Positions 21,165 to 51,751 of a stretch of DNA of 64,000 nt are shown here, in pieces. The stretch lies in the sequence record PZ445450.1; one strand, 5' to 3'. The notes under the pieces were generated by a model that saw only the letters and a program-made list of their open reading frames with translations, ran no database searches and was not told the DNA's origin. This stretch comes from a phage. Position 1 is the first letter of the stretch; every line of letters begins with the position of its first letter. The translations under genes and the position numbers were made by a program.

Positions 21165-21193
21165 TTGACTTTACTATAAATCTACGATATAGT
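21165..21193 (+). promoter_or_regulatory. Sigma70-like promoter
   Basis: TTGACT-N17-TATAGT in the divergent intergenic region upstream of the rightward block. Confidence 0.6.
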
Positions 21194-23462: not shown

Positions 23463-23732
23463 ATGTTATACCAGCAATATGAACTTCGTGCAGAAAAAGA
23501 GTTAAATTTTGACAAAGATATTCACAGATATTATTATGGGAAAGTTAGAGGGCAAGCAAGAAAGTGTACTCCAACACTCTTTTATGCCAGCAGACGACTA
23601 GCGCCAGAAGAGGCAACAGCAGAAAGGGTTGCGTACAACTGGAGAGTCACGTATGATATTGATAGATCCGATGTAATATCTGTTTTGGAAAACTTTGAAA
23701 ACACTTACACACAAGTAGAGGACTTTTACTAA
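23463..23732 (+). CDS. Hypothetical protein
   Basis: 89-aa ORF; stop overlaps start of the AAA ATPase gene. Confidence 0.4.
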   Translation: MLYQQYELRAEKELNFDKDIHRYYYGKVRGQARKCTPTLFYASRRLAPEEATAERVAYNWRVTYDIDRSDVISVLENFENTYTQVEDFY

Positions 23733-24925: not shown

Positions 24926-25306
24926 ATGGCTAAAGTAGGTAAGCGGGGAAACTACCTGGTGGTATTGACCGAGGAGCCGGAGAAGGAGTACGAATGCAGC
25001 TCCACTTGCGTGATCGATATCCGAGAAAAAGATGTAGATGAAATCTGGTTTAAAATATTGGACGCTTGCGACAGCAGTGATTATTTCTTCATCTATGTCA
25101 ACGATAAGGCTGGGTTCTTCCATGACGACGGAGAGTTGCCGTATGAAATCTATGAACTTGTAGAGGCTTGCCATCGTGGAGATGCGGAGTTGTTTGGCTT
25201 ACGGCTGAAAAGCGGTAAATTCTTCTATCAAGATGAGTGCATGAATCTTCATAACTTTGTAGAGGGAACTTGCAACGATGGAGAGATTTTGGCACACTAC
25301 GATTAA
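24926..25306 (+). CDS. Hypothetical protein
   Basis: 126-aa ORF with AGGAGG RBS. Confidence 0.45.
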   Translation: MAKVGKRGNYLVVLTEEPEKEYECSSTCVIDIREKDVDEIWFKILDACDSSDYFFIYVNDKAGFFHDDGELPYEIYELVEACHRGDAELFGLRLKSGKFFYQDECMNLHNFVEGTCNDGEILAHYD

Positions 25307-25317
25307 TTTCTAAGACC

Positions 25318-25346
25318 TCCCCCGCTTCGGCGGGGATTTTCTATTT
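25318..25346 (+). terminator. Rho-independent terminator
   Basis: Stem CCCCGC/GCGGGG with TTCG tetraloop followed by ATTTTCTATTT. Confidence 0.65.
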
Positions 25347-25355
25347 GGAGTTATT

Positions 25356-25856
25356 GTGAAAATTAAGATCTTTGCTATTATTTTGAGCGCATTTTTATCG
25401 CTGCCTGTTGTTGCAGCACCAAAACAAAAAGTATACCATACTTGCAAGCCATCAGATACTAAGGAAAACATTCTAGCATGCAATATCTACAGGGAAGCTA
25501 GAGGGGATGGCACGATGGGTATGCTGGCATCTGGGTTTGCCACCCTAAACAGGAAATCTCACCCCAAATACCCGGACACCATAAGAAAGATTGTCTACCA
25601 ACCTAACCAGTTTTCGTGGACAAACCACGGCAAAACTTTTAAGGTGACAGAAAAAGATTCATGGGATCACGCTAAAAGTCTTGCAAAGATGCTTCTAAAG
25701 GTCTATAATAACAACCATGTTGCATACATGGCTATGGACATAACAGGTGGAGCAACACACTACCATACAACCAAAGTACGACCGAAATGGGCAAAAAAGA
25801 TGCAGAGGACAGCTCAATTCGGGAGTCATATCTACTACAAGGAGCGCAATAAATGA
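25356..25856 (+). CDS. Secreted cell-wall hydrolase (SleB/Hydrolase_2-like)
   Basis: N-terminal signal peptide MKIKIFAIILSAFLSLPVVAAP; CNIYREARGDG and VYQPNQFSW fit the Hydrolase_2 signature. Confidence 0.6.
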   Translation: MKIKIFAIILSAFLSLPVVAAPKQKVYHTCKPSDTKENILACNIYREARGDGTMGMLASGFATLNRKSHPKYPDTIRKIVYQPNQFSWTNHGKTFKVTEKDSWDHAKSLAKMLLKVYNNNHVAYMAMDITGGATHYHTTKVRPKWAKKMQRTAQFGSHIYYKERNK

Positions 25857-27835
25857 TTGTAAACAGTAATGAAACTAAAGCAGTACTAACCGGAAATATG
25901 GAGGTCACCAGGGGCTCAATTTCTCTGAACAAAGAGACTTTTGGGCTAATCATTAAAGGGATTTACGAAGATAAGGTGCTGGCAAGCTGCCGTGAACCAA
26001 TCTTCAATGCTGTGGACTCCCATGTTGAGTCTGGACGGGGTGATGTACCGATCATCATTCACTCCCCTACAGACCTTGAACCATACTTCTTTGTGCAGGA
26101 CGTTGGATTGGGCATGTCAGAAGAGATGGTCCGCAACACTTTCATGAACCTCGGTGAGTCAACCAAGCGCAACAGCAACGCTCTGGTTGGCAATAAAGGT
26201 GTTGGTTCAAAGGCTCCGTTCAGCATGGTGGACACTTTCGATGTTATCAGTGTGCACAATGGTATTGAAAGCACATATCTATTGTTCTTGGATCAGGGTA
26301 TCCCAAACGTTACCAAGATCCGCGAGCGGAAGACTGAAGAGCACAACGGGGTAAAAGTTCAGTTCCATGTTAAGAAAGAGCATGTCCTGAAATATCGCAC
26401 TGCTATTGCATCGTGCTTACGCTATGCGAAGTTTCCGTTCATCGTCACCGATCCCATGACCAGTAAGATGTTAGAAGGTGACAAGGTTGAGGCACAGTAT
26501 CATTACGAGAAGGATGGCTGGAAAATGACCATCCTGAAAGGTTATACCAGTTCTGATGAGAGCCGTGTTGTGATGGGTAACCAACCTTACCGCTCCAAGT
26601 TCCTGGAGACATTGACCGATTACCCTGCAATCTGCGTGGAAATTCCTATTGGGGATTGCAATATTAACCCTGGGCGTGAATGGACCATAGAGGGCCATGA
26701 CGACGGTGGATTCCAGGATCGCCTGGAGGCATTTGTCAAAGAAGGTATACGTCTTCGCGGGGCAGAAGTTGTTGCAGAACTGGAGACGGCAAAAACCTCC
26801 GCAGAAGCACGTGAAATGATGAAGAATAGTGGAGTGTTCGGACACATCTTCGGCAAGAACTTTATGTGGAACCGTTGGGAAGAAACAGGGCTTGGCGACT
26901 TAGGCGATTGTGAAATTTTCGCTGGAGGCTTAAATAAAGGCCGCATAGGCTATGCTTGTTACGGAAAGTCGGAGTTCTTACGAGGTGTATACCTTGTATT
27001 TAACGACGGAGACGGCAAATATAACCGGAATAAGTGTAACTACTTAAGCGAGATCACCGGACGCAACGTTTTCTATTGCCGGAACACGGATCTGGTGAAA
27101 GAGTTTAAAGAGGCGGCACACCATCCGTTCTTTGCAGATACGGTCAAATTGTTATCGGAGCTTCCACGCCGACCTGCGAAGAAAGGTGAAACCAAAACTC
27201 GTTACGAGCCAGGCTACTGGGTTAAGAAGCTTAGAGAGGATGGCTACTTCCATCGTGAGCGCCTCACGAAGGCAGAGTTCAAGAAGATTAAGCATTGCAT
27301 TCCTTATGAGGGGGATATCCAACGGGGAAGCTGCTGGCTGGGCCAGATGAGTAACATCTACCAGCAAAATTATGACCGTGTGCGTGCTGCACTCCAGATT
27401 CCTGAAGGTGAAGATCTGTACCTGGTATCAGAATCTCGTCTGCTTTGGACTGATCCTGATTGCCAGTATGTTACAGAGAAGAATGTGGAACATTTGTTGA
27501 AAGAGGATGCTTGGAAATTCTTACTGACTCGCGCAGCAAATGAAACTTCATATGACAGCCTGTATAGACAATTAGGGAAAATTATCCCCATGCAGGATTT
27601 TGGAAATTATCGGCCACATTTCCACAAGTGGGAAGGTAACACCGCGTGGAAGCACAGTGAGCTAAATCATCGTGCCAAAATCTTAATCGCCAACCGGGTT
27701 AAGTGCGGGAAGGCCTATATTGCAAGATTGGAAAAGAAATATCCACTTTTGAAGCATGTGGGCTTGAAATATTGGGACACTCCTGCTATGATTGAATACC
27801 GTGAACTGATCGATACAAAGAATAACATCAAATAA
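25853..27835 (+). CDS. rIIA: rIIA-like protein (GHKL ATPase fold)
   Basis: Bergerat-fold boxes DVGLGMSEE and GNKGVGSKAPFS; 660 aa; immediately upstream of an rIIB homolog. Confidence 0.7.
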   Translation: MIVNSNETKAVLTGNMEVTRGSISLNKETFGLIIKGIYEDKVLASCREPIFNAVDSHVESGRGDVPIIIHSPTDLEPYFFVQDVGLGMSEEMVRNTFMNLGESTKRNSNALVGNKGVGSKAPFSMVDTFDVISVHNGIESTYLLFLDQGIPNVTKIRERKTEEHNGVKVQFHVKKEHVLKYRTAIASCLRYAKFPFIVTDPMTSKMLEGDKVEAQYHYEKDGWKMTILKGYTSSDESRVVMGNQPYRSKFLETLTDYPAICVEIPIGDCNINPGREWTIEGHDDGGFQDRLEAFVKEGIRLRGAEVVAELETAKTSAEAREMMKNSGVFGHIFGKNFMWNRWEETGLGDLGDCEIFAGGLNKGRIGYACYGKSEFLRGVYLVFNDGDGKYNRNKCNYLSEITGRNVFYCRNTDLVKEFKEAAHHPFFADTVKLLSELPRRPAKKGETKTRYEPGYWVKKLREDGYFHRERLTKAEFKKIKHCIPYEGDIQRGSCWLGQMSNIYQQNYDRVRAALQIPEGEDLYLVSESRLLWTDPDCQYVTEKNVEHLLKEDAWKFLLTRAANETSYDSLYRQLGKIIPMQDFGNYRPHFHKWEGNTAWKHSELNHRAKILIANRVKCGKAYIARLEKKYPLLKHVGLKYWDTPAMIEYRELIDTKNNIK

Positions 27836-27845
27836 GGAGACCAAG

Positions 27846-29051
27846 ATGATTTTCATCTACGAACATTTCAAAACCCGTAAAGAAGCACGAGACCGCCGTG
27901 CAGAACTTGAGAAGAAGGGTTTCACATGTGCCATTGAGAAAGGCGACACAACCTGGACACTGGCAGTTGGTGCCCCAGAGTTGTTCGATCCTGACCGTGA
28001 CAGCGTCTGCTACACCCGTGAGGATTTTGAAACCCGCGAAGAGGCCCGTTTATTTCGATACGGTCTGGAAGATAACGGTAAGTACGCTATGATCTTAGAT
28101 TTAGGCGAAGGTTCCGTTAAACGTTGGGGCGTGGTATACCCACTGTGTGTTGTTCACGGTGTGGGGTTCACTGGGGTAGCAATCAAGTCAGAAGAACCTT
28201 TAGTAGAAGTCAAAGATCCGGTGCTGGAGGTGGTGAGCAGTGTGTCTCAGCAACAGACTCGAAGCATCGAGCCTTTGGTAGTTATTTGTGGGGAACTCCT
28301 CCAGATCACCTGCAACGAAGGCATTTTTGAAATTCGCCGCAGCGAAAGTGAGGAAGTTTACCAGAAAGTCTTCGACCATATCTCTGTTCAGGAATATGAT
28401 GAGGCAATTGGTGAAATCCTTGTCTGGCTGGAACGCAAGAATGAGTTCACCACACTTGCAGACAACCTGATCATGAAAGATGGCAAGCTCTACTACTACG
28501 GTGTAGAGATGCGATCCACCATTGCAAAGAAAATTGAGAAAGATTATGCAGACGGAACGCTGGATGACCGCTATGTGAAATTCCTCGTTCGCCTGCTACG
28601 CAATCCTTCTGCAAAATCTGTAAACATGCTCTACGATTTTATGCAGGCCAACGATATCCAGATTGCAGAAGATGGTCGAATCATTTGCTACAAAGGGGTT
28701 CAGTTTAACGGCAGCAAGTGGGTGGATTGGCACAGTGGTAAAGTTCCACAATACCAGGGTGCTTTTGTATCCATGCCTCGTAACTTTGTAGAGGATGATC
28801 CGGAAGCTGCGTGCTCCTATGGCTTACACTGCGCCAGCAAAGAGTATGCAAAGAGCTACGGCACTGTAATGACTGTCATGGTTGACCCTGCAGATGTGGT
28901 TAGTGTGCCATACCAACACAATAGCGCCAAGTGCCGTGCATGCCGCTATGAGATTGTGGTAGCTCCGGAAGCACGCAAAGATGGAGACCCTATTGAATAT
29001 GTAGTTGATCGTGACGGTAACACTATCGACATTCTTTACGAGGAGGCGTAA
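27846..29051 (+). CDS. rIIB: rIIB-like protein
   Basis: C-terminal CSYGLHCASKEYAKSYGTV..VDPADVVSVPYQHNSAKCRACRYEIV closely parallels T4 rIIB as recalled from memory; not database-verified. Confidence 0.75.
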   Translation: MIFIYEHFKTRKEARDRRAELEKKGFTCAIEKGDTTWTLAVGAPELFDPDRDSVCYTREDFETREEARLFRYGLEDNGKYAMILDLGEGSVKRWGVVYPLCVVHGVGFTGVAIKSEEPLVEVKDPVLEVVSSVSQQQTRSIEPLVVICGELLQITCNEGIFEIRRSESEEVYQKVFDHISVQEYDEAIGEILVWLERKNEFTTLADNLIMKDGKLYYYGVEMRSTIAKKIEKDYADGTLDDRYVKFLVRLLRNPSAKSVNMLYDFMQANDIQIAEDGRIICYKGVQFNGSKWVDWHSGKVPQYQGAFVSMPRNFVEDDPEAACSYGLHCASKEYAKSYGTVMTVMVDPADVVSVPYQHNSAKCRACRYEIVVAPEARKDGDPIEYVVDRDGNTIDILYEEA

Positions 29052-51379: not shown

Positions 51380-51751
51380 ATGGAATTTATTATTTTGGCC
51401 GTATTAGTTGCCTTGTTTAACGCCTGGATCGCTGGCAAGATGGGTAGATCCGCCTTTTTATGGTTTATTATATCTATTTTCCTGGGGGTGGTTGCAACTA
51501 TTGTACTTGTTATCCTTGCAATTGTTGACAAAGGCGATAATAGAAAGGGTAAAGTATTTTCCGACCTGTATGACGCGCAAACATTTGTCAACGCCTATTA
51601 TAGTGATCTTCCAGTCTCCCTACGCTGCAGCCTTGCACAACAGGTTTTCGATGAAGCTAAAACCAGAGATCACGCCCATGAGATTTGTTTAACTGAGGCG
51701 GATCGCCTATTTGAGAGGAATAGAAAATATGTGGGCCAGCCGTTTAAATAA
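51380..51751 (+). CDS. Membrane protein
   Basis: ATG 51380 after AAAGAGG; two hydrophobic helices FIILAVLVALFNAWIAG and LWFIISIFLGVVATIVLVILAIV. Confidence 0.45.
   Translation: MEFIILAVLVALFNAWIAGKMGRSAFLWFIISIFLGVVATIVLVILAIVDKGDNRKGKVFSDLYDAQTFVNAYYSDLPVSLRCSLAQQVFDEAKTRDHAHEICLTEADRLFERNRKYVGQPFK

What the first reader, a model, noticed from the sequence alone, without database searches (positions are those of the whole stretch)
25356..25856. Signal-peptide cell-wall hydrolase inside the DNA-metabolism module
A SleB-type hydrolase with its own secretion signal sits just upstream of rIIA with no holin or spanin nearby. It could be a holin-independent endolysin or a wall-remodelling enzyme acting at entry.
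Basis: partly seen in the sequence, partly recalled or inferred. Interest (0 to 1): 0.45.

Follow-up and report, generated by a model that had tools for sequence, protein, structure and literature searches.

The report
Secreted SleB-type wall hydrolase, rV5 gp2
This is the already-annotated "cell wall hydrolase" gene (gp2) of rV5-like coliphages: a small wall-cutting enzyme that appears to be exported, made alongside the early replication genes, and that sits in addition to, not instead of, the phage's ordinary lysis genes.

Summary
ORF 25356-25856 (+, GTG start, 166 aa) has a Sec-type N-terminal signal and a SleB/CwlJ-type catalytic domain (Pfam PF07486, 70 bits). The AlphaFold model (pLDDT 95) matches only the SleB catalytic domains 4F55/4FET. 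The catalytic Glu (E47) is invariant in the family. The stop codon overlaps the rIIA start (ATGA), and no holin or spanin lies within about 8 kb.

It is not new. The window is a Vequintavirus (99.6% identical to an O157 typing phage), and the gene is rV5 gene 2, annotated "cell wall hydrolase" in 2013. A 2020 paper on a sister genus already noted its signal peptide, its spread across Vequintavirinae and its toxicity in E. coli.

Close relatives carry a full lysis set elsewhere in the genome:
- a lambda-R-type endolysin (LysECP26, shown active);
- Rz/Rz1-like spanins next to the terminase gene;
- a candidate holin, which in this window lies at 51380-51748.

The same secreted hydrolase also accompanies a canonical endolysin in T5-like, phi92-like, Seunavirus, Certrevirus and Septuagintavirus phages.

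Best reading: an accessory periplasmic lytic transglycosylase transcribed from the early promoter P010 through an attenuating terminator. A role at entry is not supported. Its physiological role is untested.

The parts
21165..21193 (+). Sigma-70-type promoter (TTGACT-17-TATAGT), equivalent to rV5 promoter P010. It is the only predicted promoter for the unit that contains the hydrolase.
   Evidence: Promoter scan. The sequence read matches rV5 Table S4 P010 apart from two substitutions.
24926..25306 (+). Upstream conserved hypothetical gene (126 aa, acidic). It is rV5 gene 3 and resembles T5.083.
   Evidence: PHROG 12370, 9.4e-89; rV5 Table S3. It is not found within about 4 kb of the hydrolase homologue in the 4MG, ALITA, T5_ev219 or Adele loci.
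25320..25346 (+). Rho-independent terminator-like hairpin: CCCCGC-TTCG-GCGGGG followed by ATTTTCTATTT. It lies between gene 3 and the hydrolase and is identical to rV5 t003.
   Evidence: Terminator scan, RNA fold, rV5 Table S4 t003 with deltaG -16.0. A 'terminator' feature is also annotated here in phages EdH4 and HdK5.
25347..25350 (+). Shine-Dalgarno GGAG, 5 nt upstream of the GTG start.
   Evidence: Read directly from the sequence.
25356..25415 (+). Codons 1-20: predicted Sec signal peptide MKIKIFAIILSAFLSLPVVA, with inferred cleavage VVA|AP.
   Evidence: An N-terminal hydrophobic segment is present in 140 of 160 family representatives. In the AlphaFold model residues 4-13 form a helix; the first two 10-residue blocks average pLDDT 72 and 85, against 93-98 for the rest.
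25416..25856 (+). Mature SleB/CwlJ-type catalytic domain (146 aa, pI about 9.95) plus the stop codon. The catalytic Glu47 codon GAA is at 25494-25496. Cys30 and Cys42 are a probable disulfide.
   Evidence: Pfam PF07486. PDB 4F55/4FET matched by sequence and by fold. E47, R66 and W145 are invariant in both alignments, and Y45 is invariant in A1 and nearly invariant in A2. Cys-pair co-occurrence. pI.
25853..27835 (+). rIIA. Its ATG overlaps the hydrolase TGA (ATGA at 25853-25856), which suggests co-transcription and possible translational coupling.
27846..29051 (+). rIIB.
   Evidence: PHROG 609, 1.3e-61.
51380..51748 (+). Homologue of the 'putative holin' bas56_0110 of phage AlexBoehm (123 aa, two N-terminal hydrophobic segments). 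It is the only other lysis-related gene in the window.
   Evidence: tblastn, 96% identity over 123 aa; annotation. It has no family support: Pfam gave no match and the PHROG families are of unknown function.

Best explanation
The gene is the orthologue of rV5 gene 2. It encodes a small, very basic enzyme with a SleB/CwlJ-type catalytic domain, most likely a lytic transglycosylase that uses Glu47.

How it most likely works:
1. The protein is made with a cleavable Sec signal peptide and released as a soluble 146-aa protein into the periplasm.
2. It is transcribed by host RNA polymerase from the early promoter P010, reading through the terminator just upstream.
3. It is translated from a GTG start and is co-expressed with rIIA and rIIB.
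4. The terminator and the GTG start probably keep its level low.

It is an accessory wall-degrading enzyme already in place next to the peptidoglycan. It is not the main endolysin. Main lysis in these phages uses a lambda-R-type endolysin, a holin and Rz/Rz1-type spanins encoded elsewhere.

Shown here: the domain, fold and catalytic residue; the signal-like N-terminus; the gene order; and the existence of the separate lysis set in near-identical genomes.

Inferred: export and cleavage, enzymatic activity on E. coli peptidoglycan, early low-level expression, and the accessory role in lysis.
For: Domain and active site:
- Pfam Hydrolase_2, 70.4 bits.
- phmmer finds only SleB catalytic domains 4F55/4FET, with E47 aligned to the Glu of the SleB motif YGESRGE.
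- That Glu is described as essential for SleB lytic transglycosylase activity (PMC12331253).
- AlphaFold model with pLDDT 95. Foldseek matches only 4F55/4FET: probability 1.0, target-normalised TM 0.74-0.79.
- E47, R66 and W145 are invariant in 48- and 74-sequence alignments.

Export:
- Tripartite signal, in which the hydrolase is the only annotated gene among the four filter hits in the window.
- Homologues in 4MG, ALITA and T5 have N-termini ending in AxA-like motifs; the Pakpunavirus Adele homologue has an uncleaved-looking anchor.
- 140 of 160 family representatives have a hydrophobic N-terminus.
- Two alternative Cys pairs co-occur perfectly, as expected for disulfides in an oxidising compartment.
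- PMC7344957 reports a signal peptide on the Certrevirus homologue and toxicity on expression in E. coli.

Separate lysis set in relatives:
- Lambda-R-type endolysin; LysECP26 is active; rV5 Gp89 is called the 'obvious lysin'.
- Spanins and a candidate holin.

Co-occurrence with a canonical endolysin in other lineages:
- T5-like phages.
- Phapecoctavirus.
- Septuagintavirus.
- Certrevirus.
- Phage vB_EcoM_LNA4.

Expression context: promoter P010 and terminator t003; none of rV5's listed putative late promoters lies near gene 2.

Conservation: the region is present in 118 phage records at 95% identity or more. The only partial matches among the rows listed are at record ends.
Against: - There are no enzymatic, genetic or expression data for the Vequintavirus protein. 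The toxicity report for the Certrevirus homologue is 'data not shown'.
- Bacillus SleB needs muramic-delta-lactam, which E. coli peptidoglycan lacks (my own knowledge of the family), so activity on vegetative Gram-negative peptidoglycan is an assumption. Partial support: recombinant single-domain Hydrolase_2 proteins from ladybirds limited growth of vegetative B. subtilis (PMC7807722).
- An active wall hydrolase exported early should risk premature lysis, and I can only propose low expression as the safeguard.
- The signal peptide was assessed with a home-made heuristic, not SignalP. One paper on Vequintavirus O177 phages says no signal peptides were detected, although it is unclear whether this protein was tested.
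- The timing is inferred from promoter predictions, not from transcript data.
Confidence: 0.62

Rival explanations
1. It is the phage's real, holin-independent endolysin. It is exported by Sec, accumulates in the periplasm and is sufficient for lysis, in the manner of the signal-peptide endolysin Lys44 of oenophage fOg44 (my own knowledge).
For: Export signal plus muralytic domain. Some pipelines annotate it 'endolysin'. The Certrevirus homologue is reported toxic in E. coli. In Seunavirus and Certrevirus a small two-segment membrane protein, a holin or pinholin candidate, lies next to it.
Against: Every lineage examined also has a canonical endolysin. In Vequintavirus the small membrane partner is missing at this position and no homologue was detected in the window or in the whole AlexBoehm genome. 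The gene lies in the early unit behind a terminator and starts with GTG, which is not how a main lysis gene is usually arranged.
Confidence: 0.1
2. It is a non-lytic wall-remodelling enzyme that acts early in infection. It might loosen or trim the sacculus to allow cell enlargement, change envelope properties together with rIIA/rIIB, or interfere with superinfecting phages.
For: Early/replication-unit location in Vequintavirus, Seunavirus, phi92-like, T5-like and Pakpunavirus genomes. ATGA overlap with rIIA. The position upstream of rIIA-rIIB-helicase is kept in Seunavirus 4MG. The gene persists alongside a canonical endolysin in many lineages, which suggests a function that is not redundant.
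Against: No direct data. The neighbours (rIIA, upstream gene) are not conserved outside Vequintavirinae, and Certrevirus has the hydrolase without rIIA/B, so a dedicated functional link to rII is unlikely.
Confidence: 0.2
3. It is a virion-associated or entry enzyme that opens the wall for DNA injection.
For: SleB-type domains do occur inside very large phage proteins (more than 1000 aa) in other phages.
Against: It has a Sec signal and is a 166-aa stand-alone protein outside the structural module. It is not among the proteins named in the rV5 virion mass spectrometry. The PA5oct homologue was not detected in virions. Relatives annotate other tail-associated lysins.
Confidence: 0.02
4. It is a membrane-tethered SAR-type endolysin, or an inactive remnant.
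For: The N-terminal hydrophobic segment could act as a signal anchor. The Pakpunavirus homologue has an anchor-like N-terminus with no obvious cleavage site.
Against: The h-region is 67% L/I/V/F with no Gly and is followed by V-V-A|A. SAR domains recalled from memory (P1 Lyz, R21) are about 50% G/A/S/T. All catalytic and invariant residues are intact, and the gene is kept at 95% identity or more in 118 records.
Confidence: 0.05

Closest known systems
rV5 gene 2 'cell wall hydrolase' (Kropinski et al. 2013, PMC3606486) and its Vequintavirus orthologues, e.g. bas56_0063 of phage AlexBoehm
   Same: Same length (166 aa), mass (19.05 kDa), pI (10.0) and Pfam domain. Same position between gene 3/terminator t003 and rIIA. 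The cluster representative P0001 is 99% identical, and the AlexBoehm copy (bas56_0063) is 100% identical over 166 aa.
   Different: Nothing of substance; this is the same gene.
CB7_83 / CR3_087 SleB-like hydrolases of Certrevirus (PMC7344957)
   Same: About 50% identical, signal peptide noted, present in all Vequintavirinae genera, toxic on expression in E. coli.
   Different: In Certrevirus (and Seunavirus 4MG) a small two-segment membrane protein follows the gene. Certrevirus lacks rIIA/B. In the window the hydrolase overlaps rIIA directly and no such partner exists.
Bacillus SleB and CwlJ spore cortex-lytic enzymes (PDB 4F55, 4FET)
   Same: Same catalytic fold and catalytic Glu. The single-domain architecture resembles CwlJ.
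   Different: About 24% identity. No N-terminal peptidoglycan-binding domain. Well below the TIGR02869 cut-off (48 vs 236.5 bits). No sporulation context and no muramic-delta-lactam substrate in E. coli.
Sec-exported endolysins such as Lys44 of oenophage fOg44, and SAR endolysins (P1 Lyz, phage 21 R) (own knowledge)
   Same: A muralytic enzyme that reaches the wall by the host Sec system without a holin pore.
   Different: Those are the main endolysins, sit in lysis cassettes and belong to other enzyme families. Here there is a separate canonical endolysin, an early-unit location and a strongly hydrophobic, apparently cleavable signal rather than a SAR domain.
T5-like 'SleB putative cell wall hydrolase' (e.g. 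AKFV33 ORF81)
   Same: About 40% identical catalytic domain. Signal peptide MKAALLLVAALTFSFSSQA|S. Early-gene region. Coexists with the T5 holin and endolysin.
   Different: Different Cys pair (positions 39/77 rather than 30/42) and no rII neighbours.

Membership tests
Pfam PF07486 Hydrolase_2 (SleB/CwlJ catalytic domain) | HMM score above the gathering threshold | tested here: met
   70.4 bits against a cut-off of 27; residues 51-161 cover profile positions 2-100 of 100.
Pfam PF07486 Hydrolase_2 (SleB/CwlJ catalytic domain) | SleB catalytic-domain fold | tested here: met
   AlphaFold2 pLDDT 95, pTM 0.85. The only significant PDB matches are 4F55 and 4FET: probability 1.0, TM 0.74-0.79 normalised to the target.
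Pfam PF07486 Hydrolase_2 (SleB/CwlJ catalytic domain) | Conserved catalytic glutamate | tested here: met
   E47 aligns with the Glu of SleB's YGESRGE motif and is invariant in alignments of 48 and 74 sequences. Its essential role in SleB is stated in PMC12331253.
Pfam PF07486 Hydrolase_2 (SleB/CwlJ catalytic domain) | Lytic transglycosylase activity on peptidoglycan | not testable with these tools
   Needs purified protein, sacculi and muropeptide analysis.
SleB proper (NCBIfam TIGR02869 equivalog) | Score above the equivalog cut-off | tested here: not met
   48.3 bits against a cut-off of 236.5; only the C-terminal profile positions 83-201 are matched.
SleB proper (NCBIfam TIGR02869 equivalog) | N-terminal peptidoglycan-binding domain | tested here: not met
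   Only Hydrolase_2 is found. Only about 17 mature residues precede the point where the SleB alignment begins.
Canonical holin-dependent endolysin | Cytoplasmic protein without an export signal, encoded next to holin or spanin genes | tested here: not met
   It has a signal-like N-terminus, and no holin or spanin lies within about 8 kb. The relatives' lambda-type endolysin fills this role.
SAR (signal-arrest-release) endolysin | Weakly hydrophobic Gly/Ala/Ser-rich N-terminal segment with no signal-peptidase site | tested here: not met
   The h-region is 67% L/I/V/F, 27% G/A/S/T and has no Gly, and V-V-A|A follows it. The comparison SAR sequences were recalled from memory.
Sec-exported (signal-peptide) endolysin | Cleavable type I signal peptide | tested here: inconclusive
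   It passes a home-made n/h/c plus -3/-1 filter, and the three other hits are short - strand ORFs. The trait is family-wide. Cys-pair covariation fits the periplasm. No SignalP and no experiment.
Sec-exported (signal-peptide) endolysin | Required or sufficient for host lysis | not testable with these tools
   Needs deletion mutants and expression tests.
Virion-associated lysin | Encoded in the structural module and present in virions | tested here: not met
   It is encoded in the early/replication unit and is not among the proteins named in the rV5 virion mass spectrometry. I did not read the full MS table.

The most novel reading that the evidence does not exclude
The secreted SleB-type enzyme is not a lysis protein at all. 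Instead it is an early-acting periplasmic remodelling factor, shared by many large virulent phages of Gram-negative bacteria (rV5-, T5-, phi92- and PAK_P1-like). It would trim the sacculus for a purpose other than lysis, for example allowing cell enlargement, altering envelope integrity together with rIIA/rIIB, or blocking superinfection.
Probability: 0.15. Interest if true: 0.6.

Novelty: already known. Interest (0 to 1): 0.22.

Why it matters
For this window it matters little: the gene, its domain, its position next to rIIA and even the terminator in front of it were published for rV5 in 2013. The signal peptide and a possible lysis role were discussed for a sister genus in 2020.

A modest open question remains. 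Several unrelated groups of large lytic coliphages keep a second, exported SleB-type hydrolase in their early region in addition to a normal endolysin, and nobody appears to have tested why. The question is easy to address with the genetically tractable BASEL Vequintavirus and T5-like phages. The answer could add a Sec-dependent accessory step to the standard holin-endolysin-spanin picture of Gram-negative lysis.

Tried and rejected
- The word-indexed homology search gave only 10 hits. I replaced it with the full HMMER scan, which found 11,334 representatives.
- Conserved gene neighbours: tblastn of the upstream genes, rIIA and rIIB against the loci around the 4MG, ALITA, T5 and Adele homologues found nothing. 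The hydrolase therefore travels as a single gene outside Vequintavirinae.
- Partner membrane protein: I looked for the small two-segment protein that follows the gene in Seunavirus 4MG. No credible homologue was found in the window or in the whole AlexBoehm genome. The T5, ALITA, Adele and CR9 downstream genes are not membrane proteins. A universal 'hydrolase plus pinholin' module is therefore rejected.
- Lipoprotein export is rejected: no lipobox Cys follows the h-region.
- SAR endolysin is rejected on composition.
- Literature searches for Vequintavirus transcriptomics, or for direct experiments on phage Hydrolase_2 proteins, found nothing specific.

Full report
**1. The observation**

The ORF at 25356..25856 (+) is real. 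It is 166 codons long and starts at GTG. A GGAG Shine-Dalgarno lies 5 nt upstream. The next in-frame Met is residue 54/56, which lies after the catalytic motif, so the GTG must be the start.

Pfam places residues 51-161 in PF07486 Hydrolase_2, the SleB/CwlJ catalytic domain (E 2.1e-19; 70.4 bits against a cut-off of 27). PHROGs gives family 938, 'endolysin'.

The next two genes are rIIA (25853..27835) and rIIB (27846..29051). The hydrolase TGA and the rIIA ATG overlap as ATGA.

No real gene with a membrane segment or lipobox lies on the coding strand between 17 and 34 kb, apart from the hydrolase itself.

**2. Where the window comes from**

The region is 99.6% identical to E. coli O157 typing phage 5 and 99.3% identical to BASEL phage Bas56 AlexBoehm. 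These are genus Vequintavirus, the rV5-like myoviruses.

The gene is rV5 gene 2. Table S3 of the rV5 paper lists 'cell wall hydrolase, 166 aa, 19052 Da, pI 10.0, PF07486' next to rIIA, which is gene 1 (PMC3606486). The window protein computes to 19053 Da and pI 10.01.

The region from the upstream gene through the hydrolase into rIIA is present at 95% identity or more in 118 phage records. The only partial matches among the listed rows lie at record ends.

**3. The protein**

*Family and fold*
- Sequence search of the PDB finds only the SleB catalytic domains of B. cereus (4F55) and B. anthracis (4FET).
- An AlphaFold2 model built on 74 homologues has mean pLDDT 95.
- By Foldseek, the model again matches only 4F55/4FET: probability 1.0, TM 0.74-0.79 normalised to the target.
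- In the viral structure library it matches many phage 'SleB' proteins.

*Active site*
- Glu47, in the motif YREARGD, aligns with the Glu of SleB's YGESRGE.
- E47, R66 and W145 are invariant across both alignments; Y45 is invariant in one and nearly invariant in the other.
- That glutamate is essential for SleB's lytic transglycosylase activity (PMC12331253).

*Not a SleB orthologue*
- It scores 48 bits against the TIGR02869 cut-off of 236.5.
- It lacks SleB's N-terminal peptidoglycan-binding domain. Its one-domain layout is closer to CwlJ.

**4. The export signal**

Residues 1-20 have the classical layout: MKIK, then a 15-residue hydrophobic core (67% L/I/V/F, no Gly), then V-V-A followed by Ala-Pro.

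A simple filter requiring that layout passed 4 of 251 six-frame ORFs in the window. The other three are 60-68-aa ORFs on the - strand, which I take to be spurious.

The trait is family-wide:
- Homologues from Seunavirus 4MG, the phi92-like phage ALITA and T5 all begin with a signal ending in an AxA-like motif. The Pakpunavirus homologue has an anchor-like N-terminus.
- 140 of 160 representatives from a full HMMER scan have a hydrophobic N-terminus. That scan found 11,334 representatives with E of 0.001 or better.

The family also shows two alternative cysteine pairs that co-occur perfectly: positions 30+42 in 22 sequences, and positions 39+77 in 46. This is what one expects of disulfides formed in the periplasm.

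The composition argues against a SAR domain, and no lipobox is present.

I had no SignalP. Export and cleavage after Ala20 therefore remain inferences, although PMC7344957 reports a predicted signal peptide for the Certrevirus homologue.

**5. Is there a lysis cassette elsewhere?**

Yes, in the parts of the genome outside this window. In AlexBoehm:
- bas56_0202 is a 156-aa lambda-R-type enzyme: PDB 1AM7 at E 3.5e-56 and PHROG 90 'endolysin'. It has no hydrophobic N-terminus.
- Genes 1 and 2, next to the large terminase gene, are Rz/Rz1-like spanins. The second has a lipobox.
- bas56_0110 is annotated as a putative holin.

The rV5 paper calls the lambda-type enzyme (Gp89) the 'obvious lysin'. 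Its ECP26 orthologue, LysECP26, lyses permeabilised Gram-negative cells (PMC9728275).

By tblastn, only the holin candidate (51380-51748) lies in the window.

**6. Comparative context**

The hydrolase sits in the early or DNA-metabolism region in every genome inspected:
- Seunavirus 4MG;
- phi92-like ALITA;
- T5_ev219;
- Pakpunavirus Adele;
- Certrevirus CR9.

Published genome papers independently report it as a second wall enzyme alongside a canonical endolysin:
- T5-like phages (PMC11180984; PMC3326045);
- Phapecoctavirus (PMC10793346);
- Septuagintavirus (PMC11370258);
- Certrevirus (PMC7344957).

Its neighbours are not conserved outside Vequintavirinae.

Within the subfamily, the position upstream of rIIA-rIIB-helicase is kept in 4MG. 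There, a 57-aa protein with two hydrophobic segments and a basic tail lies between the hydrolase and rIIA. The Certrevirus paper proposes the equivalent protein as a class II holin. Vequintavirus has no such gene at this position, and no homologue was detected in the window or in the AlexBoehm genome.

**7. Expression context**

A hairpin CCCCGC-TTCG-GCGGGG followed by a T-run lies at 25320-25346, directly before the ribosome-binding site. It is identical to rV5's predicted terminator t003.

The only predicted promoter for this unit is rV5 P010, which corresponds to window 21165-21193. None of the putative late promoters listed for rV5 lies near gene 2.

I infer early, host-polymerase-driven and attenuated expression, lowered further by the GTG start. 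This inference has not been checked against transcript data.

**8. Conclusion**

The most likely reading is an accessory, Sec-exported periplasmic lytic transglycosylase. It is not the main endolysin and not an entry enzyme.

An exclusive role as a holin-independent endolysin is unlikely. A non-lytic early remodelling role cannot be excluded.

The finding is correct but already documented, so its novelty and interest are low. The remaining open question is why many large lytic phages keep this second, exported enzyme.

Noticed in passing
L004:4536-4709 (Escherichia phage 4MG, gene 4MG_271), compared with window 25853-25856: In Seunavirus 4MG a 57-aa ORF lies between the SleB-like gene and rIIA. 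It has two hydrophobic segments and a basic C-terminus, which makes it a holin or pinholin candidate. In the window the two genes overlap directly (ATGA) and no homologue of the small ORF is detectable.
   Followed up: partly
Alignment A2 (family of the window 25356-25856 protein): Two mutually exclusive cysteine pairs co-occur perfectly across the family: window positions 30+42 in 22 of 74 sequences, and positions 39+77 in 46 of 74, including the T5 type. This suggests alternative disulfides and a periplasmic location.
   Followed up: partly
GenBank MG0656xx records matched by window 1-28000: Sixteen to eighteen records named 'Campylobacter phage', with host given as C. jejuni, are 97-99.5% identical to this E. 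coli rV5-like DNA. They are unannotated and probably mislabelled or contaminant assemblies.
   Followed up: no
P0003 (NCBI protein, 111 aa) compared with window 25356-25856: At least one database entry for this gene starts at the equivalent of Met56. It misses the GTG start and so lacks the signal peptide and the catalytic Glu. Automatic annotation of this gene is inconsistent: it is variously called hypothetical protein, endolysin or cell wall hydrolase.
   Followed up: no
window 25320-25346: A strong UUCG-tetraloop terminator hairpin lies only 9 nt before the hydrolase's ribosome-binding-site-to-start-codon region, with no promoter after it. The hydrolase, rIIA, rIIB and the helicase must therefore depend on read-through.
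   Followed up: partly
window 24926-25306: The acidic 126-aa gene upstream of the hydrolase is listed in rV5 Table S3 as similar to T5.083. It is not next to the T5 SleB-like gene, so there is no conserved pair.
   Followed up: partly
window 51380-51748: This is the homologue of the BASEL-annotated 'putative holin': 123 aa, with two N-terminal hydrophobic segments and a long soluble tail. rV5's authors proposed a different protein (gp129, 78 aa) as the holin, so the holin of this genus is still unsettled.
   Followed up: no
window 23509-23537: This is the best sigma-70 consensus match in the region (TTGACA-17-TATTAT, 11 of 12). It lies inside the 89-aa gene just upstream of the MoxR-like ATPase and is not in the rV5 promoter list. 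It could be an internal promoter feeding the ATPase-to-rIIB stretch.
   Followed up: no
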